A stretch of 64,000 nt of DNA from a virus. Its lineage: Duplodnaviria > Caudoviricetes. The notes under the pieces are model-generated. The model did not search any database, was not told the DNA's origin, and saw only the letters and a program-made list of their open reading frames with translations. Where the stretch lies: the IMG/VR virus record IMGVR_UViG_3300042554_001750. One strand, written 5' to 3'. Each line of letters opens with the position of its first letter. Positions within the stretch are counted from its first letter, which is position 1. The position numbers were made by a program, and so were the translations under genes. Positions 1 to 20,296 of the stretch are shown here, piece after piece.

Positions 1-582
1 GAAATTGATAATGAAGTCAAGAAAGGTGCCAAGAAAGGATACAAGGTAAGTATTCGTTGGCATGATGCTGGTGACTTCTTTAGTCCTGAGTATGTAGATA
101 TGGCATTTAATCTAGCAAAGAGTTTACCTAATGTAGACTTTTATGCTTACACAAAAGTTGCTGATGTTGCGTTAGGTGAGAAGCCCGACAACTTTATGAT
201 TAACTGGAGTGAAGGCGCAAGTGCTTCACAAGAGAAGAAGGTAAAGGGTAGTGATCCTAGTTTAGAAAAAACAAAGAACAGCAGAATTATTCCAAGCAAC
301 TTATTCTATGATTTATTAGTGAAGGACGAAAAGAAGAACTTGGTTAAGGGTCCTGAAGGCCAATGGCAAGTGATACCTGACAAGTTACCTGAACTAAAAC
401 AACGACTAGCAAAAGAATACGGACTAAGTCCAAATAGTATTCTTAGCTATAGTGAGTGGGAAAGTAAAGTCAAGGGTAAAGATAAATCACCATTGAAGTA
501 CAATGTGATTATTGCACCTGGCGAACCTGATTTAACTGCTAAGGATGCAGGAGTATTGAGTACATTGTTACTCAAGCATTAA
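1..582 (+). CDS. Gene product 88 (GP88)-like protein, 5'-truncated by window edge
   Basis: Frame 1 is open from base 1 (EIDNEVKKGAKKGYKVSIRWHDAGDFFSPEY...), upstream of the ORF-track Met at 100; the RWHDAGDF motif is typical of phage GP88-like proteins. Confidence 0.6.
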   Translation, partial: EIDNEVKKGAKKGYKVSIRWHDAGDFFSPEYVDMAFNLAKSLPNVDFYAYTKVADVALGEKPDNFMINWSEGASASQEKKVKGSDPSLEKTKNSRIIPSNLFYDLLVKDEKKNLVKGPEGQWQVIPDKLPELKQRLAKEYGLSPNSILSYSEWESKVKGKDKSPLKYNVIIAPGEPDLTAKDAGVLSTLLLKH

Positions 583-1402
583 TCTTAAGTAGTTCGTTGA
601 TAGTATACAAGTTACGCATATAGGGCGATACATCTTCTAATACACTTGAAGGTAAATCGCCCTTTCTTCTTGGGCCGTATTTTACTTCAAATTCATAGCC
701 ATTAATGTCTTGGAACATACAAGTCATTTCATAAACTGTTTTACCTACACCATGCCCTAATGATTCAACACTATTGCTAGGCTTATCAATTGCTGTTTTT
801 AATGCATCACAAATTTCCATGACATGGACATAATCACGCAGACATGTGCCATCTTTGGTATCATAATCATTGCCGAATATTGTGAACTCACCAGTCTTAA
901 CTGCTCTCATTAAATTGAGCATTAATCCGTCTGGATTTGTGGGAGGCACAACTGTGCTACCTATCACATTATAAAATCTAAAAATGCTATAATCTTTTTT
1001 GTTGTGTTGTGTGCAGTATTCACGGACTACATCTTCTGCGGCTCTTTTGCTAATACCATATGCACTAGCACAACCTTCGGCAGCGCCAGTACTGGCAAAA
1101 ATAAAATTCTTTGTTTTTATTTTATTCACAACATTCATTGTGCCGTTCAAATTAGTGATATAATATTGAATAGGCATCTTCTCACTTTCGCTTACATTAA
1201 CCTTTGCCGCTAAATGAATAACACAATCAAATTCTTCTTCTAAATTGAATTGACGGTTTATATCACAATGGTAAAAAGTATGCGGGTCAACTTGCGGATA
1301 GTTAATATCTAATCCATGAACCTCGTATTCATCTTTTAACAAATGTGTTAAATGTGATCCAATGTATCCTGAACTACCAGTGATTAAAACTTTCTTTACC
1401 AT
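572..1402 (-). CDS. galE: NAD-dependent epimerase/dehydratase (UDP-glucose 4-epimerase-like)
   Basis: TGSSGYIG Rossmann motif, HLAA, YxxSK (YGISK), FRFYNV, RDYVHV. Confidence 0.85.
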   Translation of the reverse strand: MVKKVLITGSSGYIGSHLTHLLKDEYEVHGLDINYPQVDPHTFYHCDINRQFNLEEEFDCVIHLAAKVNVSESEKMPIQYYITNLNGTMNVVNKIKTKNFIFASTGAAEGCASAYGISKRAAEDVVREYCTQHNKKDYSIFRFYNVIGSTVVPPTNPDGLMLNLMRAVKTGEFTIFGNDYDTKDGTCLRDYVHVMEICDALKTAIDKPSNSVESLGHGVGKTVYEMTCMFQDINGYEFEVKYGPRRKGDLPSSVLEDVSPYMRNLYTINELLKINA

Positions 1403-2724
1403 GCGAATAATTCCTCTTTATCTTCTGTGGGTATAAAATTAGGATCTTTTGTTAGATATGTATCTTCATCTGTATAGATTACACGAAACTTATGTTTATT
1501 CGTCAACACACTACGAATATCATCAATGCAAATTACTTTTCGTCCCAAACTTGCGATATAATCTTTTAGTTTTACAGTGGTCTCGTTGCAAATCTTTGCC
1601 GTATTATTATTAGATTGTTTTGTTTTAAAATCATTAAAACATTCATTCCATTTATGAAATACTGTATTTTCTATACTACCTGCATGACTCAAAACACCTT
1701 TATTATACCAATTTTCAGCAGTAGCAAACATATGATATGCATTTAATATATCTGTTGCCATATTCTTTTTATTTGTTTCAAAAAAGTAACGGCTGTCAAA
1801 GTTTTTTGTCCATCGTTGATCACTTAGGCAGAATGTGGGCAATTGTATGTGCTGTTCATAAAATGCCATACCATAGCTTTCAACTGTGCTAGGATTAAAT
1901 GCAACTCTTGCGCTTGTAATAAAATCTACTTTTTCTTTACCAACAATACTAGAATGAATGTCATACTTGACACCTAACTTAGATAAACGGTCCTCAAATT
2001 TTTTGACACCATTGGGGCTAGTCATTACTTTAGCAGGAAGTTTAGTCTGCTCAATCAAGTCAATAAACAATTCAGGATTTTTACCTTCTTCCCAGCGACC
2101 AACAAACAATACTCCCTCTCTAGGCGTGTGATGTTCTTCTAAAAGTCCACGCTCTGTGATAGGTATAGGAAGATGATATACTGTATCGCTGATGTTTAGT
2201 TGATTAAATTTGCTTTGTGTGCCAACATATATACCCGATGTTTCTAGCTGCTGTCGCATTAATTCATTTGTATTATGTAAAAATGGATTTTTAGTATCTT
2301 TGAAAATTTGACTTTCAAGATGTGTATAGGCAATAATCTGAATTACATCTTCAAGTCCCATTGTACTTGCAACCTGAACTGTCTCATATGTGTTACAAAT
2401 AAACGCATCATATAGATTATGCTCTAATGCTTCTATGATAGCATTTCTAAAGTTCGCCATTCTTTCATAGCAAAATGTATCACCATACATAAAGATATTG
2501 CTATGGTCTGTATAACGCAATGATTCTAGTGGTGCAATAACATTTGCTTTTAAAGATTTTACAAACTCGTTGTCTTGTGGCTCTTTGTCGGTGATAATAT
2601 CAACTTTGATATTACGACTATCCATTAACTCACAGAAGCTTTTAGCAAATTGTCCTATACCACCGTGAGGTATTAGTGTTTGATAACTAACTAAAAAACC
2701 AATTCTTTTATCGTATGTTCTCAT
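1396..2724 (-). CDS. GT-B glycosyltransferase (GT4-like)
   Basis: GGIG N-terminal motif, FVGRWEEGKNP, ESYGMAFYE (E-x7-E); start moved to 2724 because of the ATGA overlap with the upstream stop. Confidence 0.8.
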   Translation of the reverse strand: MRTYDKRIGFLVSYQTLIPHGGIGQFAKSFCELMDSRNIKVDIITDKEPQDNEFVKSLKANVIAPLESLRYTDHSNIFMYGDTFCYERMANFRNAIIEALEHNLYDAFICNTYETVQVASTMGLEDVIQIIAYTHLESQIFKDTKNPFLHNTNELMRQQLETSGIYVGTQSKFNQLNISDTVYHLPIPITERGLLEEHHTPREGVLFVGRWEEGKNPELFIDLIEQTKLPAKVMTSPNGVKKFEDRLSKLGVKYDIHSSIVGKEKVDFITSARVAFNPSTVESYGMAFYEQHIQLPTFCLSDQRWTKNFDSRYFFETNKKNMATDILNAYHMFATAENWYNKGVLSHAGSIENTVFHKWNECFNDFKTKQSNNNTAKICNETTVKLKDYIASLGRKVICIDDIRSVLTNKHKFRVIYTDEDTYLTKDPNFIPTEDKEELFAW

Positions 2725-2954
2725 TTCTTTAATTGCCAGATTAAAAATTCTTCTTTGCTGATCCAATATTTTTGTACGATCGGGTCACCGGGCCCGGTAA
2801 TCCAATTTTCGCCATAGTAGGCAATTTTACCCCAAAGTGGTTTTTCAGATAAAAAACATTTTTTTGGAATCCAACAGAGTTTTAATTTCCAACCTCTGGT
2901 TCTGTTTAATCCCCAATCTTCTGAAAGAGGCGCCTGCTGGGCATCTCCGTACAT
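2721..2954 (-). CDS. Hypothetical protein, 77 aa
   Basis: Fills the gap between queE and the GT gene, with an ATGA overlap. Confidence 0.65.
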   Translation of the reverse strand: MYGDAQQAPLSEDWGLNRTRGWKLKLCWIPKKCFLSEKPLWGKIAYYGENWITGPGDPIVQKYWISKEEFLIWQLKK

Positions 2955-2957
2955 TAA

Positions 2958-3809
2958 TCAGGTACCCCATTCATTCTTAAACAGTGGCACTTGAAGTCTA
3001 TCACTATAACGCCAACCGTTGTTCATAGCTTCAATAGCAACATTCTTAGCATTAAGAGTATACACTGGTTCTACCCCGCCACAAGGCATCAGGTAAACAG
3101 GACCTGTGAAGCCAGCTTTACGATATAAGTTTACTGCTTCTTTTGCTTCTTCTACATCTTCTTTAGTTGCTACCACAAACTTCAAATAAGTGAAACCATA
3201 TTCATCATATTGAGCAACAACATCAGGCTTTATAGCTTCATCCCATTTTTCACCTGAAATACTTAGTTTAGGACTAACACTAAATGTTACGCTAAAATAA
3301 CCTTTATCATGATGCCATTCACGATGCAACCATTGTCTAAATTCTTTAGTTAATTCTTGAGTGCCATTTGTCTCAAAGGTTAGTTCCTTCAATGGTCTCA
3401 TTTTTTCGTGCGAAAGTAATTCAGGATACGATCTTTGCCATCCAAGCAGAGGTTCACCCCCTGTGATAACCAAGTGCTCATCTTGCCAAGACCGTCCAGG
3501 AAGTAAATCAATAATACTACTAACAATAGTATCGGTATTGAGCACAGGACTAAGATGTTTGAAACGAGGGTCCCAAGATGCATAACTATCACATCCAGTG
3601 CTGACAAGCGGAAGGGATTTATAATCTGTATAAGTTTCTGCATTAATCGCAATTATATCTCTTTCTGTACTTAATTGACCTTTTGGCATGCCGAACCCGC
3701 CGCATGTAAAATTGCATCCAAAAGTTCTTAGGAAGACACTAGGTACACCCATGTATCTACCTTCTCCCTGTATTGAATAAAACAACTCTGATATTTTTAA
3801 ATGGCTCAT
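2958..3809 (-). CDS. queE: 7-carboxy-7-deazaguanine synthase (radical SAM)
   Basis: ELFYSIQGEG, FLRTFGCNFTC...CDS (extended radical SAM Cys motif), ITGGEP, FETNGT, VSPKL, RLQV; start 3809 overlaps the dadA stop (ATGA). Confidence 0.93.
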   Translation of the reverse strand: MSHLKISELFYSIQGEGRYMGVPSVFLRTFGCNFTCGGFGMPKGQLSTERDIIAINAETYTDYKSLPLVSTGCDSYASWDPRFKHLSPVLNTDTIVSSIIDLLPGRSWQDEHLVITGGEPLLGWQRSYPELLSHEKMRPLKELTFETNGTQELTKEFRQWLHREWHHDKGYFSVTFSVSPKLSISGEKWDEAIKPDVVAQYDEYGFTYLKFVVATKEDVEEAKEAVNLYRKAGFTGPVYLMPCGGVEPVYTLNAKNVAIEAMNNGWRYSDRLQVPLFKNEWGT

Positions 3810-4975
3810 ATTTGTTCCGAAATTAATTTTGCTGTGTATGGAGCTAATGTCCAACCTAGATGTCCGTGACCTGTATTATAAAATACATTTTTACATTTGT
3901 CACTTTTTTTGGTAATAGGCATCATATTCGGAGTCATTGGTCGCAAACATGCCCATTGTGTATAATCATGCGTGTTAATACGGGGAAAGTTTGTATGCAC
4001 CCATCGCAATAGTGGTTCAACTCTGTCCCTGCGAATATCATAGTTTTCACCTGTTAGTTCAGCAGTGCCAGCAACACGGAACCTATTACCTAAACTTGAA
4101 GTTACAATTTTGGCTTTATCATCAAGTAAACTAACTTTGGGCAATAAAGATGAATCTACATTATTGATAGTAATACTATAGCCCTTGACAGGATAGATCG
4201 GTAATTTATCACCCAAGCTTTCAGCTATGTCAACACTGCCTACTCCAGCACATATGACAACACAATCAGAATGATCCATTAGATACTCAATATCTGCTTC
4301 GTCGTTATAGTAAAACTTTACACGATATTTTTTCTCTAAGACTTTTGCTAACTGATAGCAAAATTTATGTATGTCACCTGTCCAATCGCTAGGAGTCCAA
4401 GCAGCACCAACCACACCTTTAATATCTTTTAAAGATGGATCTAGTGCTATTGTTTGTGCAGGTGTTAGTATATCCCACTCAACGTTGTTATTATTGTAAA
4501 GTTCTTTTGCAACTTTAGCAGAGTCAAAATACTTTTCATCTTTATAAAAGTGAAGTATGCCACAATCACTACGGTCAAACTCTAACTGTTCCTGGTTGCA
4601 AATTTCGTCATACAATTTTCTTGACTCTAAGCCCATGGCTATGGTTTTTTCAGTATTTGTTTTATACTGATTGGTCATAGTGTTGTAAAGAAATTTACTC
4701 ATCCAACTCCATTGCTTAAAGTCAAGCCGAGGACGAATAAGTAACGGGGCATCTTGGGTAAACATCCATTTAATGCCCTTCTTAACATTGCTCCATGTTG
4801 TCCATACTTCACTATTACTAACAGAGACTTGACCCCCATTAGCAAAACTAGTACGCATGGCAGGGTGAGGTTCCTGTTCAAATACAGAAACTTTATGTCC
4901 TGCTTTGGCTAAATAGTAAGCTGTCGTAATACCAGCGATACCTGCACCAATAACTGCTACATGTTTTTTATTCAT
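3806..4975 (-). CDS. dadA: D-amino acid dehydrogenase-like FAD oxidoreductase
   Basis: VIGAGIAG, TSFANGGQ, PVKGYSIT, WACLRPMTP, NTGHGHLGWT; start MNKKH at 4975. Confidence 0.88.
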   Translation of the reverse strand: MNKKHVAVIGAGIAGITTAYYLAKAGHKVSVFEQEPHPAMRTSFANGGQVSVSNSEVWTTWSNVKKGIKWMFTQDAPLLIRPRLDFKQWSWMSKFLYNTMTNQYKTNTEKTIAMGLESRKLYDEICNQEQLEFDRSDCGILHFYKDEKYFDSAKVAKELYNNNNVEWDILTPAQTIALDPSLKDIKGVVGAAWTPSDWTGDIHKFCYQLAKVLEKKYRVKFYYNDEADIEYLMDHSDCVVICAGVGSVDIAESLGDKLPIYPVKGYSITINNVDSSLLPKVSLLDDKAKIVTSSLGNRFRVAGTAELTGENYDIRRDRVEPLLRWVHTNFPRINTHDYTQWACLRPMTPNMMPITKKSDKCKNVFYNTGHGHLGWTLAPYTAKLISEQI

Positions 4976-5615: not shown

Positions 5616-6116
5616 TTAATTGAATAAGTCCTCGTTCCATTCACGGTGACCTTCACGAAAGGCCATGTTTGCTTGTGTCTCTCTAACTTCTACACGGTAG
5701 CACCATAGGCGTTCGCTTTCTCCCGGTCCCCACATGTCAGGAATGTAGACACCATTAACATACTTGTAAAGCATGTCGGCTAGACCTTCACAGCCTAAGC
5801 GTGGAAGTATAGTTAGTTTAGCCATCTTTTTTTCTTGCAACATTTTAAATGTTTCAAGTTCTGGATCATCTTGCGCTACAAGCAATGTATGGTCAAACTG
5901 ATCTTCTAGAATTTTCTTAAGTTCTTTCAATCCACCGTAATCAGCAGCCCAATTGCGAACATCAAGATTATTAGTACCAAAATAAAATTTCATACTAAAA
6001 CTATATCCATGTATCATATTGCAATGACTGTCAGCACGCCATTGACGATACGCACAGGGAAATGCGTCATGGTATTCTTTAGTACTTGTATATTTGTATG
6101 TAATTGGATTATGCAT
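5616..6116 (-). CDS. queD: 6-carboxy-5,6,7,8-tetrahydropterin synthase
   Basis: CxxxHGYS motif (SHCNMIHGYSF), DYGGLK, FDHTLL, CEGLA, EVRET; SD AGGAG 5 nt upstream. Confidence 0.9.
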   Translation of the reverse strand: MHNPITYKYTSTKEYHDAFPCAYRQWRADSHCNMIHGYSFSMKFYFGTNNLDVRNWAADYGGLKELKKILEDQFDHTLLVAQDDPELETFKMLQEKKMAKLTILPRLGCEGLADMLYKYVNGVYIPDMWGPGESERLWCYRVEVRETQANMAFREGHREWNEDLFN

Positions 6117-6187: not shown

Positions 6188-6655
6188 TTATTTACCATTT
6201 TTATTTAGTTCTGTCTCAGCAACTCGTTTACGCAAACTACTTGAACTAAAACTATGATCACGACCGTTGAATACTAATTGTATTCCACGTTTCTCGCAAA
6301 TGGCACGACCAGTAAAATCTTTCTCCATGTACTCAACACCGAGTATACGCACATCAACGGGCAATGTCAAGAGGATATCTTCTAAGTCTTTTTCCGTATT
6401 GTAGACAACTATTTCATCTACAAAGCGGCAAGCACTTAATGTAATTTGGCGCTCTACAATACTTTGTATGGGAGCATTCTTTTCAGGACGATCCCAACTA
6501 GCATTGTTTTGTAATCCACAAATAAGATAGTCACAGTGATTTTTAGCCTCACTTAGCATTGCGACATGTCCGGCATGCAGTAAATCAAATTGGCTAAAAG
6601 TTATACCAATTCGTAAGCCTTGAGCTTTTAATTCTTTAATTCTGTTGAAGATCAT
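6188..6655 (-). CDS. Cytidylyltransferase (TagD/glycerol-3-phosphate cytidylyltransferase-like)
   Basis: FDLLHAGHV (HxGH), VDEI, RDHSFSSSSLR; start 6655 from ATGA overlap. Confidence 0.85.
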   Translation of the reverse strand: MIFNRIKELKAQGLRIGITFSQFDLLHAGHVAMLSEAKNHCDYLICGLQNNASWDRPEKNAPIQSIVERQITLSACRFVDEIVVYNTEKDLEDILLTLPVDVRILGVEYMEKDFTGRAICEKRGIQLVFNGRDHSFSSSSLRKRVAETELNKNGK

Positions 6656-6888
6656 TCTTGCAATCTTCTCCACATGATCTTTTGTTCATGTTCTTTTAAG
6701 AATTCATCCTCTCCTGCAAATTCGGGAGAATCTTTTAGTATTGAATCCACTAACCATTTAATTCTATAAAGGTCCTGTTTTAAGTAAAACGCAGTATAAC
6801 CATCGTTATATGAACTGTTAACTTCTACACCGGTCATATAGATTTGATGATGTACGCTAGTGTAGTCCATTGGTTTCTTAAAGCCCAT
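6652..6888 (-). CDS. Hypothetical protein, 78 aa
   Basis: Overlapping start/stop with both neighbours. Confidence 0.7.
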   Translation of the reverse strand: MGFKKPMDYTSVHHQIYMTGVEVNSSYNDGYTAFYLKQDLYRIKWLVDSILKDSPEFAGEDEFLKEHEQKIMWRRLQE

Positions 6889-7148
6889 TATACTAACTCC
6901 TCTAAGATTCCCAATAACTCAGCACCGATCAAAAAGAATCCTGCTACAAAAAATACACCACCTCCTTGAAGTAGTGCAACACCGGCGACAATTCTAAGAG
7001 CACTCTTTACAAGGCTAACATAAAAATGTCCTTTGCTGGGATCCTTGGGTTGTATATTAATCATAGGTGGATGATGAGGACAGCGTCCTTGTTGAAAATC
7101 ACAATCAGGGCTATAATCTTTTTTACAGATATCGCACTTCATCTGCAA
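6888..7148 (-). CDS. Small membrane protein with N-terminal CxxC/Cys cluster
   Basis: CDICKKDYSPDC...C followed by a hydrophobic C-terminal hairpin. Confidence 0.65.
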   Translation of the reverse strand: MQMKCDICKKDYSPDCDFQQGRCPHHPPMINIQPKDPSKGHFYVSLVKSALRIVAGVALLQGGGVFFVAGFFLIGAELLGILEELV

Positions 7149-7819
7149 CCCTTAGTTGCAATGTTTAAAAACTCTTGTCTAGCAGCAGGATCATTTTTGA
7201 AACCTCCACCGAGACGGCTAGTGACAGTTGAACTACCTGTATCCTCAACACCGCGACTCTTAACACAATAATGCTGTGCGTCAATCATAACCGCAACATC
7301 TTCTGTATCTAAGATAAACTGTAGTGTGTGGAAAATCTGTTCAGTTAACCGTTCTTGAATCTGCGGACGCTTGCTGAAATATTCTACAATCCGATTAATT
7401 TTAGATAGTCCAAGCACTTTATCCTTAGGCACATATGCAACAGTAGCGGTGCCATCAATGATAACAAAATGGTGCTCACAATTGCTTTGTACATTGACGT
7501 TCCTTTCAACGACCATTTCGTTGTACTTCATCTTGTTATCAACTGTAGTACACTTGGGGAATGCTTCATAATCAAGCCCCCAAAAGATTTCGTTTACATA
7601 CATCCGGGCAACACGTTTGGGTGTTTCTGCTAGACTGTCATCAGACAAATCTAATCCAAGCAATTCCATTATTTGCTTGAAATTAGTTTCAATGATTGAA
7701 ATCTTGGCTTTGCGATCAAGATCAACTTCCTTCATAGGAGTTTCAACACCCATTTTAACTAGATGTTCGTGAACTTTTAAACCAAGCTCAGGGTCTGTTT
7801 TTGTTTTATTGTAACTCAT
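7139..7819 (-). CDS. folE: GTP cyclohydrolase I
   Basis: TPKRVA, SNCEHH, GLSKINR, RPQIQERLT, HYCVKSRG. Confidence 0.95.
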   Translation of the reverse strand: MSYNKTKTDPELGLKVHEHLVKMGVETPMKEVDLDRKAKISIIETNFKQIMELLGLDLSDDSLAETPKRVARMYVNEIFWGLDYEAFPKCTTVDNKMKYNEMVVERNVNVQSNCEHHFVIIDGTATVAYVPKDKVLGLSKINRIVEYFSKRPQIQERLTEQIFHTLQFILDTEDVAVMIDAQHYCVKSRGVEDTGSSTVTSRLGGGFKNDPAARQEFLNIATKGCR

Positions 7820-9375: not shown

Positions 9376-9430
9376 TAACAATTGCCTCTAATAAAAACTA
9401 ACTATACAACAAAACAACTATAAAACAAAA

Positions 9431-9458: not shown

Positions 9459-11336
9459 TTACTTGACTTCTGTAGTTTCTGCGTCTACTACATTTGGTTC
9501 CGTTTTTTGTTTAGCTTGTTCTGCTTCATACTTTTTACTAGTAATGGGACCAATTGCTTGATACAGTTCGGTAACCTTTTTATTGATTTCCTCAGCATCT
9601 TCACCCTTAAGTGCTTGCTCTAAATTGTCAAGTGCTTCCTTTGCTTTATTACTTTCTTCCTCTGTTACCTGATCTTTAAATTCATTGTAATCACTACGGA
9701 AGTTATTTAAAGCACCTTCACCACTGTTCTTTGCTTGAATCAGTTCAAGTTTCTTCTTATCAGCTTCTGCATTTTCTTCAGCTTCACGAACCATCTTATC
9801 AATTTCAGCTTCAGTTAATCCAGAATTAGACTTGATTGTAATCTTGTTTTCTTTACCTGTGCCTTGATCTTTTGCACTAACATGCATGATACCGTTAGCA
9901 TCAATATCAAGTGTTACTTCAATTTGAGGTACTCCACGCTTGGCTGGGGGAATTCCTTCAAGATTAAATTCACCTAACAATTTATTGTGTTGTACAAATT
10001 CTCTTTCACCTTGATAGACTTTGACAGTAACAGCAGGTTGATTATCATCCGCAGTACTAAACACTTGACTATGCTTGGTAGGAATAGTAGTGTTCTTTTT
10101 GATAAGCTTAGTCATGACACCACCCATAGTTTCAATACCGAGACTTAGAGGTGTAACATCAAGCAATAGAACATCCTTACGGTCACCTGCTAAAACACTA
10201 CCTTGAATAGCTGCACCAGCGGCAACTGCTTCATCAGGATTAACATCCTTGCGAGGTGCCTTAGCAAACAATTTTTCAACTTCTTCTTGAACCTTAGGCA
10301 TGCGAGTCATACCGCCAACAAGAATGACTTCATCAATGTCACTTGCTGTTACATTTGCATCCTTCATCGCAATCTTGCATGGTTCAATAGAACGCTTGAT
10401 TAATTCTTCAACCAAACTTTCTAACTTAGCACGGGTGAGCTTGATGTTCATGTGCTTGGGACCACTTGCATCAGCAGTAATGTATGGAAGATTAACATCA
10501 GTTTGGCTACTGCTGGACAATTCAATCTTGGCCTTTTCAGCAGCTTCTTTCAAACGCTGTAGTGCTAATACATCCTTAGTTAGATCAACACCTTGTTCCT
10601 TTTTAAATTCAGAAACAAGATAGTCCATGATGCGTTGGTCAAAGTCTTCACCACCTAAAAATGTATCACCGTTAGTGGACAGAACTTCAATCTGTTTCTC
10701 ACCATCAATGTTTGCAATCTCAATAATAGAAACGTCAAAGGTACCACCGCCCAAGTCATAGACAGCAACCTTACGGTCTTTCTTATCAGCTTTATCTACA
10801 CCATATGCCAGTGCAGCCGCTGTTGGTTCATTGATGATACGCAATACTTCTAGACCAGCAATGCGTCCGGCATCCTTAGTTGCTTGACGCTGGCTGTCGT
10901 TGAAATATGCAGGGACAGTAATAACTGCTTGAGTGACTTCGTGACCGAGATAATCTTCTGCGGTCTTTTTCATCTTGCGCAAAACTTCGGCTGAAATTTG
11001 CGGAGGTGCAATTTCTTTACCTGAAACACGGACCCATGCGTCACCATTAGTTGCCTCATAGATTTCATATGGCATGAGGTCAATATCTTTTTGAACTGCG
11101 TTTTCTTTAAACTTACGACCAATCAAACGCTTGGCTGCATAGATAGTATTTTTGGGATTTGTTACTGCTTGTCGTTTTGCACTTGCACCAACTAAGATTT
11201 CATCGTTAGTGTATGCAATGATTGATGGGGTTGTACGTGCGCCTTCACTGTTTTCAATAACTTTTGTAGAACCGTTTTCTACAACTGCAACGCACGAATT
11301 GGTTGTACCGAGGTCAATACCTATTACTTTGCTCAT
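9459..11336 (-). CDS. dnaK: Hsp70 chaperone DnaK
   Basis: [36 protein letters not shown]; full length. Confidence 0.98.
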
Positions 11337-11414: not shown

Positions 11415-12590
11415 TTAGAACTTAGATTCTCTAGTGTGTTTACGATAATCCGTAGACATGCGCAAATATTTCTCACCCTTACCCTGAAGGACATCACAAA
11501 TTCTATCAATAGTACCGTCATTATAGTTACTAATTTTACCCATATTGACATGTGGTTTCTTTAGTAGAATTTCTAACTTGTTTATAGCATCTTCTATTGA
11601 CCATGGAACATAGAGGCGTTCATGATCATTAGCAAAAGTTTCTGGGAAACTGCGATAAGCAGGATACAATACATTACAACCAAGAGTATCGGCCTCAGAT
11701 ACTGTGTTTGATACCCAATCTTGTAAAGCACAATTAAACAAAACCCTACTATCATTAAGAATATTATAGTAAGTATTCTTATCTAGATCCTCATAAATTG
11801 ACAGTTTGTTTTCTTCTTCTAATTTACGGGTGCGTTTCATATAACTATCATTATTGCTACGCAACTTGCCGCCGCTACACAAAACAAATTCAACTTCGTT
11901 AGGATGCCTACGATTATATTCTTCAATTAGATCCATAAAGAAATCGGGCTGCTTTTCCTGATCCCAACGCGCGGCAAATACAACACGCATTCTGCGCTTG
12001 TTGAATGGTTTAATTTTACCTTCAACACGTTCTTCAACTTCTTCTTTACCGAATGCTAGCCCTGAAATATTGTATATAGGACTAGTCCATCCAGCAATAC
12101 GCATATGAGCAACCATTTCTTCGTTTGTTGCGAGGACTCCGTCCACAAACTCATTAACCATTTGTTCGTAGAGGCCCATCCATTTCGCCATACCCCATAC
12201 ATGTACGAAATCGTCAGGATCAATGGACTGAGCAAGACACCTAACATAAATGCGGGGACGTAGATTACTAGGGACTTGATCCAGTATGTAAGGTAAACTT
12301 TCCATACCGGGCTGGAACATGTCTTCAAAGTAGATAACATCTTCATTTGTTACTTTTCCCTCTTTCATCAATTTGACAAGGTTCATCATTTGACTCATGG
12401 AGTAGTAGCTACGACCATGAGCATCCAATACCTGACCAGTAACGATTGCCTGATCACTGGTTAGTGTTTCGCCGGATACAATTTCGTATTTGATTTTTCT
12501 TCGTTTGAAAACACGTTCATTCCAATCAGTTAACTGAAGGGTATAACGCGCTTTATAGGGCTCTAGCCCCATGTAAAATAGTTTTCTCAT
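11415..12590 (-). CDS. GT-B glycosyltransferase (putative DNA-modifying)
   Basis: FAARWDQEKQP, LQDWVSNTVSEA, YPAYRSFPE; lies next to the DpdL-like and DpdA-like genes. Confidence 0.7.
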   Translation of the reverse strand: MRKLFYMGLEPYKARYTLQLTDWNERVFKRRKIKYEIVSGETLTSDQAIVTGQVLDAHGRSYYSMSQMMNLVKLMKEGKVTNEDVIYFEDMFQPGMESLPYILDQVPSNLRPRIYVRCLAQSIDPDDFVHVWGMAKWMGLYEQMVNEFVDGVLATNEEMVAHMRIAGWTSPIYNISGLAFGKEEVEERVEGKIKPFNKRRMRVVFAARWDQEKQPDFFMDLIEEYNRRHPNEVEFVLCSGGKLRSNNDSYMKRTRKLEEENKLSIYEDLDKNTYYNILNDSRVLFNCALQDWVSNTVSEADTLGCNVLYPAYRSFPETFANDHERLYVPWSIEDAINKLEILLKKPHVNMGKISNYNDGTIDRICDVLQGKGEKYLRMSTDYRKHTRESKF

Positions 12591-12595
12591 ATTGA

Positions 12596-12841
12596 TTAGA
12601 AAAAGTTAATTTTTAACAATTTGCATACTGCATCATATGGATTTGATATCTCAACCCAAACATTAGATTTAATATCATATGTTTTGAATGCATCTACAGT
12701 AACATTCATTTTATCATTATTATATACTGTAGTCATATTGCATTTTCCCTCTAATACAAAATAATGTATATTAGAATCAGTAATGCTTCCTGTTATTGTT
12801 TCATTCTTATCTAGCTCAATTTGATTTATATTGTATGGCAT
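12596..12841 (-). CDS. Hypothetical protein, possibly cupin-like
   Basis: YFVLEG motif; preceded by TATAAATA (12878-12885) and a GCAA-tetraloop hairpin. Confidence 0.55.
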   Translation of the reverse strand: MPYNINQIELDKNETITGSITDSNIHYFVLEGKCNMTTVYNNDKMNVTVDAFKTYDIKSNVWVEISNPYDAVCKLLKINFF

Positions 12842-12854
12842 ATATTTTATGTAA

Positions 12855-12885
12855 AGAATGGCAGTTGCCTGCCATTCTATTTATA
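12855..12885 (-). promoter_or_regulatory. Late promoter TATAAATA overlapping a 10-bp GNRA hairpin
   Basis: AGAATGGCAG-GCAA-CTGCCATTCT; may also terminate the upstream gene. Confidence 0.55.
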
Positions 12886-12890
12886 TGCTT

Positions 12891-13106
12891 TTAAACCAAT
12901 TCAGCTTTTCCATCTATTTCCCAGTTGTCCTTGACAGGCTTTCCAGTAATAAATTTTGTATACTGACGGAATACATAACTCTTGTTACTGTATAGGTCAG
13001 ATTCGTCATATTTGTACCCAAACTGAACACAGAAATTAAGATACTTTTCTAGGTCCTCAAAAATCTGATTGACACGAGGATTGGGTTGAATAACGATTTT
13101 TGCCAT
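12891..13106 (-). CDS. Hypothetical protein, 71 aa
   Basis: SD AAGGAG upstream. Confidence 0.75.
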   Translation of the reverse strand: MAKIVIQPNPRVNQIFEDLEKYLNFCVQFGYKYDESDLYSNKSYVFRQYTKFITGKPVKDNWEIDGKAELV

Positions 13107-13117
13107 TTATATCTCCT

Positions 13118-13567
13118 TTAGATGGCTAGTTGTTGATAAGGTTGATGTGTTTTATAAGAAATTGTGGCACCGTTCTCACCGTCTTCGGATACGGTAATCT
13201 CAATGTCACGCCCGGGATAACGAGTAGCAATAACTTCATAAAGGTCATCGCTAATCATTTCACAACTCTTGAAATTCAATTCCAATGTGCCTTGGTAGAG
13301 CTTTTCTAGCCAACGCTTGAATTGGATAAACTCAATATCCCTATCGTTGTGAAATACTTGAATGCCTACGTTGAAATGAAAAATATGACGATGGGGAGTT
13401 CCCAAGAAACTTACATCATATTCATCACCAGTGGCAAGATTTGAGTCGGTTGCAGCAGCCGGGTACTTATGAATACCTTCTTTACGAAAGGTCACCCAGA
13501 TCATTCGGCGTGCTCGGTCGCGAATTCTTTCACGCTTTTCAGCCAATGCTTGTTCGTGTTGATTCAT
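13118..13567 (-). CDS. T-fold QueD paralogue (DpdL-like, predicted CDG decarboxylase)
   Basis: LGTPHRHIFHF metal-binding motif, DRDIEF, SCEM, VSEDGENGA; DpdL assignment is from recalled motif and needs an HMM check. Confidence 0.6.
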   Translation of the reverse strand: MNQHEQALAEKRERIRDRARRMIWVTFRKEGIHKYPAAATDSNLATGDEYDVSFLGTPHRHIFHFNVGIQVFHNDRDIEFIQFKRWLEKLYQGTLELNFKSCEMISDDLYEVIATRYPGRDIEITVSEDGENGATISYKTHQPYQQLAI

Positions 13568-13776
13568 TCATAACTCCGATTAAGTGTTGCCCACATCAAC
13601 CATTGATGGAAGGCGTTGTAAACTTTTTCTGCTTCTGTTGCATCTTGTTCAATTTTAATTCCGCGCACATAAAAGCCATCTTTTGCTACACGCAACATTT
13701 CAGACTCATTAGAGTGAAACAAGATTGTTGCAGGCTGAATGTCATGATCCAGATTAAAACTTGTAGTGTCGTCCAT
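13564..13776 (-). CDS. Hypothetical protein, 70 aa
   Basis: Coupled to neighbours. Confidence 0.65.
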   Translation of the reverse strand: MDDTTSFNLDHDIQPATILFHSNESEMLRVAKDGFYVRGIKIEQDATEAEKVYNAFHQWLMWATLNRSYE

Positions 13777-13940
13777 TATTCGTCACCGTAGCCTATACGC
13801 TGATTTTCTTCGTATTGGGCTTTGCGCAAAAGCCGTAATTCGTTTAAAACTTTATCAATTTTTTCTTTGTCTTTATTTTCGGCACTTTCCAAGTGCTTTA
13901 ATTGATTTTCTAAAATTCTAATTTGATTACTATAGTCCAT
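13776..13940 (-). CDS. Hypothetical protein, 54 aa (not in ORF track)
   Basis: MDYSNQIRILENQLKHLE...GYGDE; GGAG upstream; TAATG overlap with the next gene. Confidence 0.65.
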   Translation of the reverse strand: MDYSNQIRILENQLKHLESAENKDKEKIDKVLNELRLLRKAQYEENQRIGYGDE

Positions 13941-13941
13941 A

Positions 13942-15501
13942 CTATTCTCCTAACGCCTCTGTCATTGCATCATCACTATCAATGATTTCTTCATCAATTT
14001 CGGGTTCTGAATTTTCAAAACTAAACAGTTGATCAAACATAGTCATAGCGTTAACAGTCTTTTTACCACTAATACCCTGACTACCACTTTGCATTTGCGT
14101 CCATAGTTTGCTATGTCGCTCAATAACTTCTAAACTTTCAGCCTTTGTTTTCTTACTAAAGATTTCTTCAATCACATCTTTGTACAGTATACGATCAAAT
14201 GTTTCATTCATCAACATTTTTGGTATAACTCCCTGTTCATATCTACGGTTAGCTTCTTGAACACCATTGATATGCATCCAAACATTGTGACTTTGAACCA
14301 ATGTATAACTTAATGTATCCCAACTAGTTTTAGTTTCTTTACCGTGTTGACCCAAAAAGCCAACACCACGATAGCATAAATCTTTAAGTAAGAGTTTATC
14401 AGTTACTGGACTATCTGTAAATGTATCATGGATACCTTCAGCCAAAACAGCAGTGCTAAATTTGCGAGTATCATTAGCAAAGTTTTTATTTTCTGCGGTT
14501 TTTTCCATACTGTATGACCATTTTTTACCATGCTCAAAACTATTATTGAAATAAGCAAGGCCCTTAGCTGCACCATAAAATGGGCTAGCGCAGTCAAAAG
14601 TAATTTCCAAATTAGGATTGTGATATTTGCGTATTGCCTTTTTAATATCACTAAACAATACCGCATATTCCATGATACTAACACCTAGGCAATGAATTAA
14701 ATCATGTTTGCCCGGAATCAATAATCCATCATAGATAATATCAACTAATCTACGCAACATTAAATGTACATCAATTTTATTCTGACCACCGAATGCCCAA
14801 CCATTAAAATGATTGTCTGGATAGATATTTGGGTCACAATATTTTTTCATTTCAAGATACCAATCATCACTTTGAGTATGATTGCGACCTTGCAATACAT
14901 TTAAGAACTTACATTTGCCCGAACGGTTTTGAATAAAATATTCGTTGTTGATATGTGTAGCAGCAATCGCTTCTTCAATTGTGCTGATACCATGTGCTGA
15001 TTTACCAGTTTTGGGATCTTTGATATGAAAAGTAGTTAGTGACTGTGAAGGAATATCAAGACACATACCATAATCCATGTATGTATCCATCCATGTCAAA
15101 ACTTCCTTGCGCTTTTTCATGGCACGAGGACAGTTAGGATCCTTCCAATCAGCAGGCCACTGGCATTTTAGAATCTGAAATCCACCTGAGTCACCGAGCA
15201 TGAATGTGCCCGGTTCACGCTCACGGATAATGCTTTCATTTGGGTCATCTTTAGTGATATCTAAGTTAGCATGACCAGCACTGTACAATCCCCACTTATA
15301 ATAGTAAAGACCTTGTTGACTGTTTAAGAAATTCAAACATTCAACATCATTATTAAAACCAGCAGGAATCCTTGACTTCTCAAAATATTCCTCACCTTTG
15401 CGTTGCTTACCTAATCCACTGATGTAAAAACTACTAACAGCGGGCAAGAATAATGCCCACTCTGGATTGTGTTTACTAGAAAGATTATCTTGTTCCATCA
15501 T
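13942..15501 (-). CDS. dpdA: TGT-family guanine transglycosylase (DpdA-like, probably DpdA3-type)
   Basis: DSGGFQ, LDIP, VLQG, WAFGG, HCLG, FDCASP motifs; lacks the Zn-binding CxC motif of tRNA TGTs; in a folE/queD/queE context. Confidence 0.75.
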   Translation of the reverse strand: MMEQDNLSSKHNPEWALFLPAVSSFYISGLGKQRKGEEYFEKSRIPAGFNNDVECLNFLNSQQGLYYYKWGLYSAGHANLDITKDDPNESIIREREPGTFMLGDSGGFQILKCQWPADWKDPNCPRAMKKRKEVLTWMDTYMDYGMCLDIPSQSLTTFHIKDPKTGKSAHGISTIEEAIAATHINNEYFIQNRSGKCKFLNVLQGRNHTQSDDWYLEMKKYCDPNIYPDNHFNGWAFGGQNKIDVHLMLRRLVDIIYDGLLIPGKHDLIHCLGVSIMEYAVLFSDIKKAIRKYHNPNLEITFDCASPFYGAAKGLAYFNNSFEHGKKWSYSMEKTAENKNFANDTRKFSTAVLAEGIHDTFTDSPVTDKLLLKDLCYRGVGFLGQHGKETKTSWDTLSYTLVQSHNVWMHINGVQEANRRYEQGVIPKMLMNETFDRILYKDVIEEIFSKKTKAESLEVIERHSKLWTQMQSGSQGISGKKTVNAMTMFDQLFSFENSEPEIDEEIIDSDDAMTEALGE

Positions 15502-15869
15502 CCGATTTTAATTTCCATTGATGTAAGTTTCCTTACAATATCAATTTGTTCTTTTTTTTCTTTAATTTGTTTTTGAAGATCAGCAATGGTTGGGTTAGTT
15601 TTTGCTAACTCATTTAGTTCCATTTCTTCTTGGCGTTTTTGCCTTGCCCAATCAAGTAACGATTCAGCTTCGGGCGTCATTGAAACAGTAGAATATCCAG
15701 AAGCCATTTGAATCCAATTAGCTCCATCGTATATTTCAATATTTTGTGTTGAAGTATTAAACCGCATGTTACCAACACCTTGAGATCCACTGTAGTTATT
15801 CACATAAGTAGAGCCCGAGCCGCCGGTAACAGTCAGATATTTTCCACCGCCTGTAATGTTCTTAATCAT
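15498..15869 (-). CDS. Hypothetical protein, 123 aa
   Basis: Gly-rich N-terminus, coiled-coil C-terminus; overlaps both neighbours. Confidence 0.75.
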   Translation of the reverse strand: MIKNITGGGKYLTVTGGSGSTYVNNYSGSQGVGNMRFNTSTQNIEIYDGANWIQMASGYSTVSMTPEAESLLDWARQKRQEEMELNELAKTNPTIADLQKQIKEKKEQIDIVRKLTSMEIKIG

Positions 15870-16597
15870 TTTGCTTGCGCAGGAAGTAGATACTTGTATG
15901 TTGCAAGACCACTATCAACAGTAATCTCTGTAGCACCCTGATCACTAACCTTAACAGTCTTATCACCGGGCAAGTCCATAATAGATTGGAAGACCTTTAC
16001 AGGCCAGTTCCAAGCCTTACTTAGTGTACCAGTTACACCACTGTGAAACACAAAGTTACCACTGTGAGTTGAAGGATCACCGAAGTTAATCTTTAGATCA
16101 CCATTAAGTGTGGTCATAGTAAAGTGTTGTTCTTCACTGTTAGCACTTGCTTGTTTCTTCAAACGCAAGATACCTGCAATGCTAGGTTCAAATTCAACGT
16201 TCCAATTAGCACCCTTGAATACTGGAGTCTTGATTTTTTCTTCAACAATGGACTTGCTCATCAAACGGTAATCGTTTACGAAGTCATTGTTTTTAGTTTG
16301 AAAGTGAATGTTAGTGGGAACCATTGGATCATCTTTAGTTCCGCGTGTAACATTAACAGTGGCTTGTTCATCATACTCATCAAAACCAAGAATAGTTTTG
16401 AGCTTGCTAAGATTAGGCATACCAAATGTGCCGATAAAGTCACTAACTGGTTGCTTGAATGTACCCATTACGATAACACTCTTATCTTCTGCGATACTAA
16501 CAATTTGTGTTTCTTTGTCAGTACCCACAACCTTGACCAGCTCAATAACTCCTAGTCCATGTGTATGTTGAATCAAATCTTGTAAATAATCTTTCAT
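15866..16597 (-). CDS. Sliding clamp (gp45-like)
   Basis: Size, beta/alpha pattern, position next to polB. Confidence 0.65.
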   Translation of the reverse strand: MKDYLQDLIQHTHGLGVIELVKVVGTDKETQIVSIAEDKSVIVMGTFKQPVSDFIGTFGMPNLSKLKTILGFDEYDEQATVNVTRGTKDDPMVPTNIHFQTKNNDFVNDYRLMSKSIVEEKIKTPVFKGANWNVEFEPSIAGILRLKKQASANSEEQHFTMTTLNGDLKINFGDPSTHSGNFVFHSGVTGTLSKAWNWPVKVFQSIMDLPGDKTVKVSDQGATEITVDSGLATYKYLLPAQAK

Positions 16598-20270: not shown

Positions 20271-20296
20271 TGTGCTAGTATAGCACAACTTAGAAT

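What the first reader, a model, noticed from the sequence alone, without database searches (positions are those of the whole stretch)
11415..15501. GT-B + DpdL-like + DpdA-like trio without QueC: predicts CDG/7-deazaguanine insertion with a dedicated DNA glycosyltransferase
Seen: a 519-aa TGT-fold protein (DSGGFQ, LDIP, VLQG, HCLG), a T-fold QueD paralogue with LxxxHRHxF, and a second GT-B enzyme within 4 kb; no queC, queF or arcS in the window. Known: a QueD paralogue (DpdL) is the proposed CDG decarboxylase, and DpdA3 is linked to near-complete G replacement. Inference: the pathway stops at CDG or DG, and this GT may decorate it (for example at the CDG carboxylate).
Basis: partly seen in the sequence, partly recalled or inferred. 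Interest (0 to 1): 0.7.

Follow-up and report, generated by a model that had tools for sequence, protein, structure and literature searches.

The report
Sugar transferase tied to phage deazaguanine DNA
A giant lake phage carries the genes for swapping guanine in its DNA for 7-deazaguanine, plus a virus-only sugar-adding enzyme found only beside that gene set, which predicts a sugar-bearing purine in DNA that has not been described chemically.

Summary
All three genes lie on the minus strand at the stated coordinates, and every quoted motif is present.

- **519-aa protein:** it has no Pfam, NCBIfam or PDB sequence hit, but its model has a tRNA-guanine transglycosylase fold (Z 19.4). It is a long relative of DpdA2, of the Pseudomonas phage PA5oct type. 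It is not DpdA3.
- **149-aa protein:** it is a clear DpdL, 57.6% identical to the Acidovorax phage ACP17 DpdL.
- **Upstream pathway:** folE, queD and queE are also in the window. No queC was found in the window or in 10 complete or near-complete relatives.
- **Main result:** the glycosyltransferase belongs to a virus-only GT4-like clade. It occurs once per genome, on the same strand as dpdL and at most 2.7 kb from it.
- **Where the GT occurs:** it is present only where DpdL is combined with a DpdA2-like enzyme. It is absent from DpdL+DpdA3 phages, including phiST, where plain dDG was measured. It is also absent from QueC+DpdA2 phages.

So the GT very likely belongs to the deazaguanine pathway, most plausibly by glycosylating it. 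The acceptor, the site and the timing are unknown. A CDG-carboxylate acceptor is unlikely. The scan reached a similar reading on an adjacent stretch (e1-5370076).

The parts
13942..15501 (-). Long DpdA-like transglycosylase (519 aa, P0001), PA5oct type and distantly related to DpdA2. Residues 476-519 form an acidic, disordered tail.
   Evidence: TGT fold: Foldseek E 1e-7; VIA Z 19.4 over 304 residues. Invariant D104, D149, H270 and D303. 33% identical to PA5oct EST35_0316. hhalign probability 98% to DpdA2-type proteins. No CxCxxC zinc motif (read).
13118..13567 (-). DpdL (149 aa, P0002), a QueD paralogue and the proposed CDG decarboxylase.
   Evidence: LGTPHRHIF signature. 57.6% identical to ACP17 DpdL and 33.9% to phiST DpdL. 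hhalign probability 91% to QueD over 67 columns.
11415..12590 (-). GT2 (391 aa, P0003), a virus-only GT4-like GT-B glycosyltransferase that accompanies DpdL plus a DpdA2-like enzyme.
   Evidence: Fold. Invariant E10, R15, Y16, D90, D127, E142, R208, K213, K271 and E299. Homologous to ACP17 ASD50404 (E 3e-17) and to PA5oct EST35_0317. Co-occurrence.
7139..7819 (-). FolE, GTP cyclohydrolase I.
   Evidence: PF01227 E 1.3e-62. 62% identical to ACP17 FolE.
5616..6116 (-). QueD (CPH4 synthase).
   Evidence: PF01242 E 1.1e-15. 52% identical to ACP17 QueD.
2958..3854 (-). QueE (radical-SAM CDG synthase).
   Evidence: 49% identical to BUCT-ZZ01 QueE (E 4e-75). Weak Radical_SAM hit.
1396..2766 (-). GT1, a second GT-B glycosyltransferase (456 aa) and a possible chain extender.
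   Evidence: Weak Glycos_transf_1 hit. 38% identical to BUCT-ZZ01 UTS52035, which lies inside that phage's deazaguanine cluster. Found in only 3 of 57 diverse GT2 loci.
572..1402 (-). NAD-dependent sugar epimerase/dehydratase.
   Evidence: PF01370 E 5e-34.
6188..6673 (-). Cytidylyltransferase-like nucleotidyltransferase, a candidate maker of an activated sugar or polyol.
   Evidence: PF01467 E 1.7e-10. Present in 48 of 80 loci of the same lineage.
15498..15869 (-). 123-aa ORF whose stop overlaps the dpdA start. Function unknown.
   Evidence: ORF list. Conserved in 56 of 80 related loci. Only partial PHROG hits.
12596..13106 (-). Two small ORFs (81 and 71 aa) between dpdL and GT2. Function unknown.
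   Evidence: ORF list. No Pfam or PHROG hit.

Best explanation
This is the insertion-and-tailoring end of a QueC-less 7-deazaguanine DNA-modification module in a lake jumbo phage of about 340 kb. FolE, QueD and QueE, all in the same window, make 7-carboxy-7-deazaguanine (CDG). DpdL is the proposed decarboxylase that turns CDG into 7-deazaguanine (DG). The 519-aa TGT-fold enzyme, a long DpdA2-related DpdA, exchanges guanine in phage DNA for the deazapurine. GT2 is a virus-only GT4-like GT-B enzyme with its nucleotide-sugar-binding residues intact. It then puts a sugar on that deazaguanine, so the final DNA base is a glycosylated deazaguanine rather than the plain dDG of phiST. In this lineage GT1 may add a second sugar.

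Shown here: the folds, the family memberships, the absence of queC, and the co-occurrence rules.

Inferred: the decarboxylation, which has never been demonstrated for any DpdL; DNA rather than tRNA as the target; and the glycosylation itself. Whether the sugar goes on after insertion or on the free base before it, and at which atom, is open.
For: Pathway:
- folE, queD and queE are in the window.
- DpdL identity is clear.
- The 519-aa protein has the TGT fold with its catalytic Asp residues.
- No QueC in the window, in the complete genomes of PA5oct, ACP17, BUCT-ZZ01, Phosso and phiST, or in 5 related contigs of 105-133 kb. Four of 5 jumbo genomes at least 91% complete lack it; the fifth, G007, has only partial PP-loop hits, described in the Against line.

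DNA as the target:
- PA5oct carries the same DpdA-GT2-DpdL trio next to its DNA polymerase. Its DNA resists G-containing restriction sites, and it is restricted by nucleases that target phages with modified G (PMC12191111).
- The phiST DpdL system gives dDG in DNA (PMC10516641).

Link between GT2 and the pathway:
- GT2 is single-copy.
- 49 of 57 diverse IMG/VR loci seeded on GT2 have dpdL within 8 kb. Seven of the 8 exceptions are cut by a contig end.
- In all 49 pairs the two genes share a strand, with a median gap of 219 nt and a maximum of 2.6 kb.
- 47 of 47 loci of the window's own lineage that have enough room carry both genes.
- GT2 is absent from six DpdL+DpdA3 phages and from three QueC+DpdA2 phages, with positive controls.

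Catalysis and supply:
- R208, K213 and E299 are invariant, and the EX7E position reads D291-x7-E299.
- Sugar-nucleotide genes are interleaved in this lineage, and GT1 is shared with BUCT-ZZ01.

Precedents:
- The huimycin family of gene clusters carries GT4-type (PF13439) glycosyltransferases, and HuiG is proposed to glycosylate the 2-amino group of a 7-deazapurine (PMC7439116; bioRxiv 10.64898/2026.04.15.718813).
- QTMAN-family clusters appear among the feature-based neighbours.
Against: - There is no chemical evidence for a sugar on any deazaguanine in DNA, and none was found in the paper library.
- DG has no hydroxyl group, which is the usual acceptor of GT4 enzymes.
- The nearest solved folds act on small molecules, not on DNA.
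- The GT2 family is acidic, with median pI 5.6. The DpdA family is about 6.1, so this is a weak point.
- DpdL's decarboxylase activity is only a proposal, and heterologous expression of dpdA with dpdL from ACP17 gave no dDG (PMC10516641).
- The rest of this phage's genome could not be searched for queC.
- G007, one of the 5 near-complete jumbo genomes, has PP-loop ORFs that score up to 26.5 bits on the first 65 positions of the QueC model.
Confidence: 0.5

Rival explanations
1. The DNA base is plain dDG, as in phiST. GT2 belongs to the module but does something other than glycosylating the deazapurine. For example, it could glycosylate another acceptor that DpdA2-like enzymes need when they handle DG, modify a protein or a different base, or make a soluble metabolite.
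For: phiST reaches dDG with DpdL and DpdA3 and no GT2. DG offers no hydroxyl acceptor. The nearest folds to GT2 use small-molecule acceptors, and the family is acidic. Bacterial DpdA needs a non-homologous helper, DpdB (PMC10164549).
Against: GT2 is not a general DpdA2 helper, because nt-1, Moby and pf16 lack it. Its strict restriction to DpdL genomes, same-strand adjacency and conserved catalytic residues point to an acceptor that depends on DpdL's product.
Confidence: 0.25
2. One reading: the pathway stops at CDG, which is inserted into DNA, and the GT esterifies the CDG carboxylate with a sugar.
For: There is no queC. dCDG does occur in the DNA of one virus (Sulfolobus virus STSV-2, PMC10516641). 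A carboxylate is a possible oxygen acceptor.
Against: GT2 is never seen without DpdL, the candidate enzyme for removing that carboxylate. No CDG was found in the DNA of phiST, a DpdL phage. Acyl glycosides are labile, and I know of no precedent among GT4-like enzymes (from my own knowledge).
Confidence: 0.08
3. A nucleotide-level, tubercidin-like route. CDG or DG is phosphoribosylated and processed as a nucleotide, the deazapurine enters DNA through the polymerase, and GT2 and DpdL act on soluble intermediates.
For: QueC-less tubercidin clusters use a phosphoribosyltransferase, a decarboxylase and a GMP-reductase homologue (bioRxiv 10.64898/2026.04.15.718813). The window has a GMP-reductase-family gene beside folE. 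An XGPRT-like gene recurs in 19 of 57 GT2 loci, in BUCT-ZZ01 and in PA5oct.
Against: A DpdA-type transglycosylase with intact catalytic residues is present in 36 of the 49 GT2+DpdL loci and in every complete GT2 genome examined. No phosphoribosyltransferase homologue was found in the window. The GMP reductase is not conserved in other clusters (1 of 57). Salvage of the guanine released by base exchange explains an XGPRT equally well.
Confidence: 0.07
4. The three genes are neighbours without a shared function. The TGT-fold enzyme acts on tRNA, and the GT serves cell-surface or virion glycosylation.
For: TGT enzymes are classically tRNA enzymes, and phage GT-B enzymes often have other roles.
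Against: The trio recurs across phages of Pseudomonas, Acidovorax, Xanthomonas, Burkholderia, Sinorhizobium and Synechococcus and across 49 metagenomic loci. PA5oct DNA is modified at G.
Confidence: 0.05

Closest known systems
DpdL-type dDG system of Cellulophaga phage phiST (FolE, QueD, QueE, DpdL, DpdA3; Cui, Hutinet et al., NAR 2023, PMC10516641)
   Same: FolE, QueD and QueE with no QueC, plus a DpdL carrying the LxxxHRHxF signature (34% identical). A TGT-superfamily enzyme lies beside it.
   Different: phiST uses a short DpdA3 (259 aa, DNSGFE-type motif) and has no GT2 anywhere in its genome. The window has a 519-aa DpdA2-related enzyme plus GT2, and in this lineage GT1 and sugar-nucleotide genes as well.
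Gene trio of Pseudomonas jumbo phage PA5oct (EST35_0316, 0317, 0318) and its relatives
   Same: The same three families in one operon next to the DNA polymerase and clamp: DpdA 33% identical, DpdL 56% identical, GT2 homologous (E 3e-10). The DNA is experimentally resistant to restriction at G-containing sites (PMC12191111).
   Different: PA5oct has the short GT2 subtype and an XGPRT-like gene. It has no GT1. The chemical identity of its modification is unpublished in the library searched.
DpdA2 systems (Vibrio phage nt-1; Stenotrophomonas phage Moby; Pseudomonas phage pf16)
   Same: Same catalytic core layout: DSGG(F/L)Q, (L/F)DxP, QG, HxLG and (F/Y)D(C/S). hhalign gives probability 98% over 186 columns. 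Same position beside the replication genes.
   Different: Those phages carry QueC and insert preQ0-type bases. They lack both DpdL and GT2. The window's enzyme is about 100 aa longer, and only its core aligns.
T4 alpha- and beta-glucosyltransferases acting on 5-hydroxymethylcytosine DNA
   Same: A phage-encoded GT-B enzyme proposed to sugar-coat a non-canonical base as an anti-restriction measure. The optional second transferase recalls the gentiobiosyl DNA of T2 and T6 (from my own knowledge).
   Different: No specific likeness was found. Proteins annotated as DNA alpha-GT appear only among generic GT-B hits (ranks 16 and 18). The acceptor here would be a purine without a hydroxyl group.
Glycosyltransferases acting on 7-deazaguanines: HuiG of huimycin (free base, N2-GlcNAc) and QTMAN/GTDC1 (mannosyl-queuosine in tRNA)
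   Same: GT4-clan GT-B enzymes whose acceptor is a 7-deazaguanine derivative (PMC7439116). QTMAN-family clusters account for 17 of the 100 whole-protein feature neighbours, with scores of 0.97.
   Different: No GT2 member gives an HMMER hit to QTMAN_N. The N-terminal domain alone ranks QTMAN_N only 25th, behind generic GT4 domains. HuiG and QTMAN use acceptors (an O-methylated preQ0 amine, a cyclopentenediol hydroxyl) that a DpdL pathway would not provide.

Membership tests
TGT superfamily / DpdA (DNA 7-deazaguanine transglycosylase) | TIM-barrel TGT fold | tested here: met
   AF2 pLDDT 89.6. All of the top 50 Foldseek PDB hits are TGTs. VIA Z 19.4, rmsd 4.3, 304 residues aligned to 2ash.
TGT superfamily / DpdA (DNA 7-deazaguanine transglycosylase) | Catalytic Asp in the DSGGFQ motif and nucleophile Asp in the FDC motif | tested here: met
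   D104 and D303 are invariant in 50 homologues. The motifs align with DpdA2 in hhalign. Equivalence to Z. mobilis D102 and D280 is inferred from the motif order.
TGT superfamily / DpdA (DNA 7-deazaguanine transglycosylase) | Zinc-binding CxCxxC...H subdomain of canonical TGT | tested here: not met
   There is no CxCxxC in the sequence and no invariant Cys in the family. Whether phage DpdA2 or DpdA3 need this subdomain is not known to me.
TGT superfamily / DpdA (DNA 7-deazaguanine transglycosylase) | Acts on DNA rather than tRNA | not testable with these tools
   Indirect only: the homologous trio in PA5oct, whose DNA resists G-site restriction enzymes, and the position beside the DNA polymerase and clamp.
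DpdA3 subfamily | Sequence membership with phiST gp042 and its relatives | tested here: not met
   hhalign to a six-member DpdA3 profile gives probability 63% over 174 columns, with DNSGFE in place of DSGGFQ. HMM score to phiST DpdA3 is 7.7 bits. BLAST clustering puts all DpdA3 proteins in a separate group.
DpdA2 subfamily (prototype: Vibrio phage nt-1) | Sequence membership | tested here: inconclusive
   hhalign probability 98%, E 2e-13, but only over the 186-column core at 19% identity. The A1 profile scores ACP17 DpdA2 at 29.8 bits. tblastn with P0001 finds no DpdA2 phage. It is best described as a sister family.
DpdL (proposed CDG decarboxylase, QueD paralogue) | Signature LxxxHRHxF replacing the CxxxHGH of QueD | tested here: met
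   L55-G-T-P-H-R-H-I-F63. The signature is defined in PMC10516641.
DpdL (proposed CDG decarboxylase, QueD paralogue) | Homology to the named DpdL proteins of phiST and ACP17 | tested here: met
   57.6% identical to ACP17 (E 8e-36) and 33.9% to phiST (E 2e-8).
DpdL (proposed CDG decarboxylase, QueD paralogue) | Genome context: FolE, QueD, QueE and a DpdA, but no QueC | tested here: met
   The remainder of this phage's own genome was not searchable.
DpdL (proposed CDG decarboxylase, QueD paralogue) | CDG decarboxylase activity | not testable with these tools
   Never shown for any member. Heterologous expression failed in PMC10516641.
GT-B glycosyltransferase, GT4-like | Two-Rossmann GT-B fold with a Glycos_transf_1 C-terminal domain | tested here: met
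   AF2 pLDDT 86.9. Foldseek E 1e-13 to GlgM, MshA and BshA. Pfam PF00534 matches 29 of 38 members.
GT-B glycosyltransferase, GT4-like | Nucleotide-sugar-binding Arg/Lys and the EX7E motif | tested here: met
   R208, K213 and E299 are invariant. The first position of the motif is D291 here and E in most members.
DNA glucosyltransferases of T-even phages | Specific structural likeness or a DNA-binding groove | tested here: inconclusive
   None is among the top 50 PDB hits. Viral proteins annotated as DNA alpha-GT rank 16 and 18 among generic GTs. The family's median pI is 5.6. Surface electrostatics could not be computed.
QTMAN (tRNA-queuosine mannosyltransferase, PF12038) | QTMAN_N N-terminal domain | tested here: inconclusive
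   Whole-protein feature neighbours include 17 QTMAN clusters at 0.97. There is no HMMER hit in 38 members, and the N-terminal domain alone ranks it 25th at 0.90.

The most novel reading that the evidence does not exclude
Phages that combine DpdL with a DpdA2-like enzyme carry a glycosylated 7-deazaguanine in their DNA. As far as I know this would be the first sugar-bearing purine in any genome. The GT2 family would be its dedicated transferase. The sugar may sit on C7, freed by decarboxylation, which would mimic queuine. In that case the DpdA2-like enzyme might insert the already glycosylated base, which would explain why GT2 tracks the DpdA type.
Probability: 0.45. Interest if true: 0.85.

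Novelty: new variant of a known kind. Interest (0 to 1): 0.68.

Why it matters
7-deazaguanine DNA modifications are an active front in the phage-host arms race: restriction evasion, Dpd systems, END nucleases, and the Dag glycosylases that excise dDG (bioRxiv 10.1101/2025.10.29.685425). The published catalogue lists eight deazaguanine derivatives, and none carries a sugar.

The rule found here is simple. GT2 is present if, and only if, DpdL meets a DpdA2-like enzyme. That rule:
- defines a third, widespread system type, with thousands of environmental homologues;
- names the candidate enzyme;
- points to cultured phages (PA5oct, ACP17, BUCT-ZZ01, X1, BCSR5, Phosso) where one LC-MS run would settle the chemistry.

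It may also explain two open points. One is why co-expressing ACP17 dpdA and dpdL gave no product (PMC10516641). The other is what the unidentified modified G of the therapeutic-candidate phage PA5oct is. If the sugar is real, it would add a new base and a new class of DNA- or deazapurine-directed glycosyltransferase.

Tried and rejected
- **Sequence searches with the 519-aa protein.** Pfam, PHROGs, PADLOC, NCBIfam and PDB phmmer all found nothing meaningful, and neither did a 50-sequence profile against the PDB. Only 2 of 50 family members touch Pfam TGT, at E 0.043. Named DpdA2 and DpdA3 proteins also miss Pfam TGT, so this blank is typical of the group.
- **Nucleotide search.** Megablast of the region against GenBank phages gave no match.
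- **Whole genome.** None is held for this window, so queC could be sought only in the window and in relatives.
- **Supplementary tables of PMC10516641.** They are not held, so I could not see how the authors classed the ACP17 or PA5oct DpdA.
- **The search for related loci with the 7-sequence GT2 alignment.** It failed for lack of a conserved stretch. A 3-sequence alignment worked.
- **Complex prediction of DpdA with GT2.** The result was 'no answer' (score 0.00). I do not use it either way.
- **QTMAN lead.** It was raised by the feature search. HMMER did not confirm it, nor did the N-terminal domain alone. I keep it only as a functional analogy.
- **GT2 as a general DpdA2 helper.** Rejected, because nt-1, Moby and pf16 lack it.
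- **The PP-loop protein at 19680-20288 as a hidden QueC.** Pfam assigns it to PF01171 (E 5.8e-34) with no QueC hit. A QueC-like adenylating role is not excluded.
- **Isoelectric point of GT2 as a proxy for DNA binding.** It is acidic, but so is the DpdA family, so the result is uninformative.

Full report
**Anatomy.** The finding spans three minus-strand genes: a 391-aa glycosyltransferase (11415-12590, here GT2), a 149-aa protein (13118-13567) and a 519-aa protein (13942-15501). Four small ORFs lie between them. Upstream on the coding strand lie a sliding clamp (15866-16597), a family-B DNA polymerase (16671-19385) and a PP-loop ATPase (19680-20288). Downstream lie dnaK, a GMP-reductase-family gene, folE (7139-7819), a cytidylyltransferase-like gene, queD (5616-6116), an FAD oxidoreductase, queE (2958-3854), a second GT-B (GT1, 1396-2766) and a sugar epimerase/dehydratase. 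The exact GT2 protein also occurs on a 339,748-base contig. Related IMG/VR contigs of 105-133 kb are rated 30-38% complete. This is therefore a jumbo phage of about 340 kb. Its relatives are very common in metagenomes.

**The 519-aa protein.** HMMER-level searches against Pfam, PHROGs, PADLOC, NCBIfam and the PDB gave nothing.
- It heads a family of at least 812 representative clusters. In an alignment of 50 members, D104, S105, G107, D149, H270, G273 and D303 are invariant.
- The AF2 model (pLDDT 89.6) matches only tRNA-guanine transglycosylases at the top of the PDB list: Foldseek E about 1e-7, and VIA Z 19.4 over 304 residues.
- The family profile aligns to ACP17-type DpdA proteins with hhalign probability 98%. 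Those proteins are DpdA2: the ACP17 protein is 35.7% identical to that of Vibrio phage nt-1, the DpdA2 prototype (PMC6884629).
- Against a profile of six DpdA3 proteins the probability is only 63%. The motifs fall in the same order, but DpdA3 reads DNSGFE where this protein reads DSGGFQ.
- There is no CxCxxC zinc motif.
- The closest GenBank homologue is PA5oct EST35_0316 at 33% identity.

I therefore call it a long, DpdA2-related DpdA of the PA5oct type, and not a DpdA3.

**The 149-aa protein.** It carries LGTPHRHIF, the published DpdL signature. It is 57.6% identical to the ACP17 DpdL and 33.9% to the phiST DpdL. Membership is clear. The decarboxylase activity is still only a proposal.

**No QueC.**
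- Fifty of the window's 76 ORFs were scanned against Pfam without a QueC, QueF or ArcS hit.
- The only PP-loop motif in six frames belongs to a PF01171 TilS-type protein.
- QueC (PF06508) is absent from the complete genomes of PA5oct, ACP17, BUCT-ZZ01, Phosso and phiST and from five related contigs of 105-133 kb.
- It is also absent as a full-length match from five jumbo genomes at least 91% complete. One of these is a 356-kb genome whose DpdA is 41.5% identical and whose DpdL is 71% identical to the window's. One other genome has PP-loop ORFs that match only the first 65 positions of the model.

**The glycosyltransferase.** GT2 is a GT-B enzyme (pLDDT 86.9). Its nearest solved folds are GT4/5/20 enzymes: GlgM, glycogen synthase, MshA, BshA, OtsA and PimA. 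Its nearest predicted structures are all viral 'hypothetical proteins' (TM 0.89-0.92) and the ACP17 and BCSR5-like proteins. Across 38 diverse members E10, R15, Y16, Q67, D90, D127, E142, R208, K213, K271 and E299 are invariant. The N-terminus carries a striking LEPxETRYT motif. The nucleotide-sugar-binding residues are intact, so catalysis is expected.

**Co-occurrence rule.** GT2 is homologous to ACP17 ASD50404 (E 3e-17) and to PA5oct EST35_0317 (E 3e-10). Both lie between dpdA and dpdL in their genomes. The same pairing is seen in BUCT-ZZ01, Phosso, Xanthomonas phage X1 and Burkholderia phage BCSR5.
- Of 57 diverse IMG/VR loci seeded on GT2 (31-49% identity to the ACP17 GT2, plus ACP17's own record at 100%), 49 have dpdL within 8 kb. 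Seven of the eight exceptions are cut by a contig end.
- In all 49 pairs the two genes share a strand, with a median gap of 219 nt.
- In the window's own lineage, 47 of 47 loci with enough room carry both.
- Whole-record profile searches, with positive controls, find exactly one GT2 in PA5oct, Phosso, X1, BCSR5, ACP17 and BUCT-ZZ01.
- They find none in phiST, RHph_I1_18, Bakedbeans, Ahp1, D479 or MA9V-3, which have DpdL plus DpdA3. They find none in nt-1, Moby or pf16, which have QueC plus DpdA2.

So GT2 appears only where DpdL and a DpdA2-like enzyme coincide. In syntenic T4-like phages, Moby has QueC-DpdA2-QueE where ACP17 and X1 have GT2 and DpdL around DpdA2-QueE.

**Interpretation.** That this module makes a QueC-less 7-deazaguanine and puts it into DNA is well supported by homology.
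- phiST DNA contains dDG in place of dG.
- PA5oct DNA resists G-containing restriction sites, and PA5oct is restricted by END nucleases that target phages with modified G. Its base has not been identified chemically.

That GT2 belongs to the pathway is strongly supported by the co-occurrence rule. That it glycosylates the deazaguanine is the most economical inference. The enzyme looks catalytically intact and depends on DpdL's presence. Sugar-nucleotide genes and a second GT are interleaved in this lineage and in BUCT-ZZ01. GT4-type enzymes acting on 7-deazapurines have precedents in HuiG and QTMAN.

The inference is unproven, and the acceptor atom is a real difficulty because DG has no hydroxyl group. 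Two timings are possible:
- **After insertion.** A bulky sugar would compensate for the partial, motif-limited substitution typical of DpdA2. This is my inference.
- **Before insertion.** The DpdA2-like enzyme would insert a pre-glycosylated base, as eukaryotic TGT inserts queuine. That would explain why GT2 tracks the DpdA type.

The small-molecule bias of the nearest folds and the acidic pI lean slightly towards the second.

**Relation to earlier work.** Iyer et al. (PMC7824862) noted a deazaguanine system in PA5oct. Cui et al. named DpdL and tried ACP17 dpdA plus dpdL without success. Neither mentions the GT. No paper in the library describes a glycosylated deazaguanine in DNA. Within this scan, e1-5370076 reached a similar reading from the adjacent 572-7819 stretch. 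My added results are the three-way rule (DpdA3, DpdA2+QueC, DpdA2-like+DpdL+GT2), the structural confirmation and the subfamily placement.

**Verdict.** This is a new variant of a known kind of system, with a concrete and cheaply testable prediction.

Noticed in passing
window 19680-20288 (-): A 202-aa PP-loop ATPase (SGGVDS motif; PF01171 TilS-type, E 5.8e-34). It is the only PP-loop protein in the window, lies 4 kb upstream of dpdA, and is kept in 46 of 80 related loci. QueC is also a PP-loop enzyme, so a QueC-like adenylating role on CDG is not excluded.
   Followed up: partly
window 8341-9381 (-): A GMP reductase/IMPDH-family gene (PF00478, E 1.8e-71) lies between dnaK and folE. GMP-reductase homologues are tailoring enzymes of the QueC-less tubercidin pathway. 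It is not conserved in other GT2 clusters (1 of 57 loci).
   Followed up: partly
L004:4093-4554 (BUCT-ZZ01), L001:9946-10380 (PA5oct): An XGPRT-like phosphoribosyltransferase recurs inside GT2/DpdL clusters (19 of 57 metagenomic loci) but was not found in this window. It could salvage the guanine released by base exchange, or it could make a deazapurine nucleotide.
   Followed up: partly
L156 (Moby) compared with L003 (ACP17) and L088 (X1): Module swap in syntenic T4-like phages. Moby has QueC-DpdA2-QueE between the recombinase and the helicase, where ACP17 and X1 have GT2 and DpdL around DpdA2-QueE.
   Followed up: partly
L147:7212-8363 (Vibrio phage Bakedbeans gp176), L150:7431-8312 (Chryseobacterium phage MA9V-3): In these phages DpdL is the C-terminal part of longer proteins (383 and 293 aa). 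The N-terminal parts have no Pfam hit. A fusion partner might reveal DpdL's true reaction.
   Followed up: no
L005 (Phosso) and record PV764938.1 at 323249-324697: In the 469-kb Sinorhizobium phage Phosso the DpdA homologue lies about 170 kb from the DpdL-GT2-FolE-QueE cluster. DpdL-GT2 is therefore the tighter unit.
   Followed up: no
window 13942-14073 (-), residues 476-519 of the DpdA-like protein: An acidic, disordered C-terminal tail (pLDDT below 50), reminiscent of the protein-recruiting tails of replication proteins.
   Followed up: no
window 28819-29865, 33406-34209, 36075-36896 (+), 38102-38791: A second cytidylyltransferase-like ORF, a DnaJ, a PhoH and a Bax1-inhibitor-family membrane protein. 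Together with the dnaK at 9459-11336, the phage carries its own DnaK/DnaJ chaperone pair.
   Followed up: no
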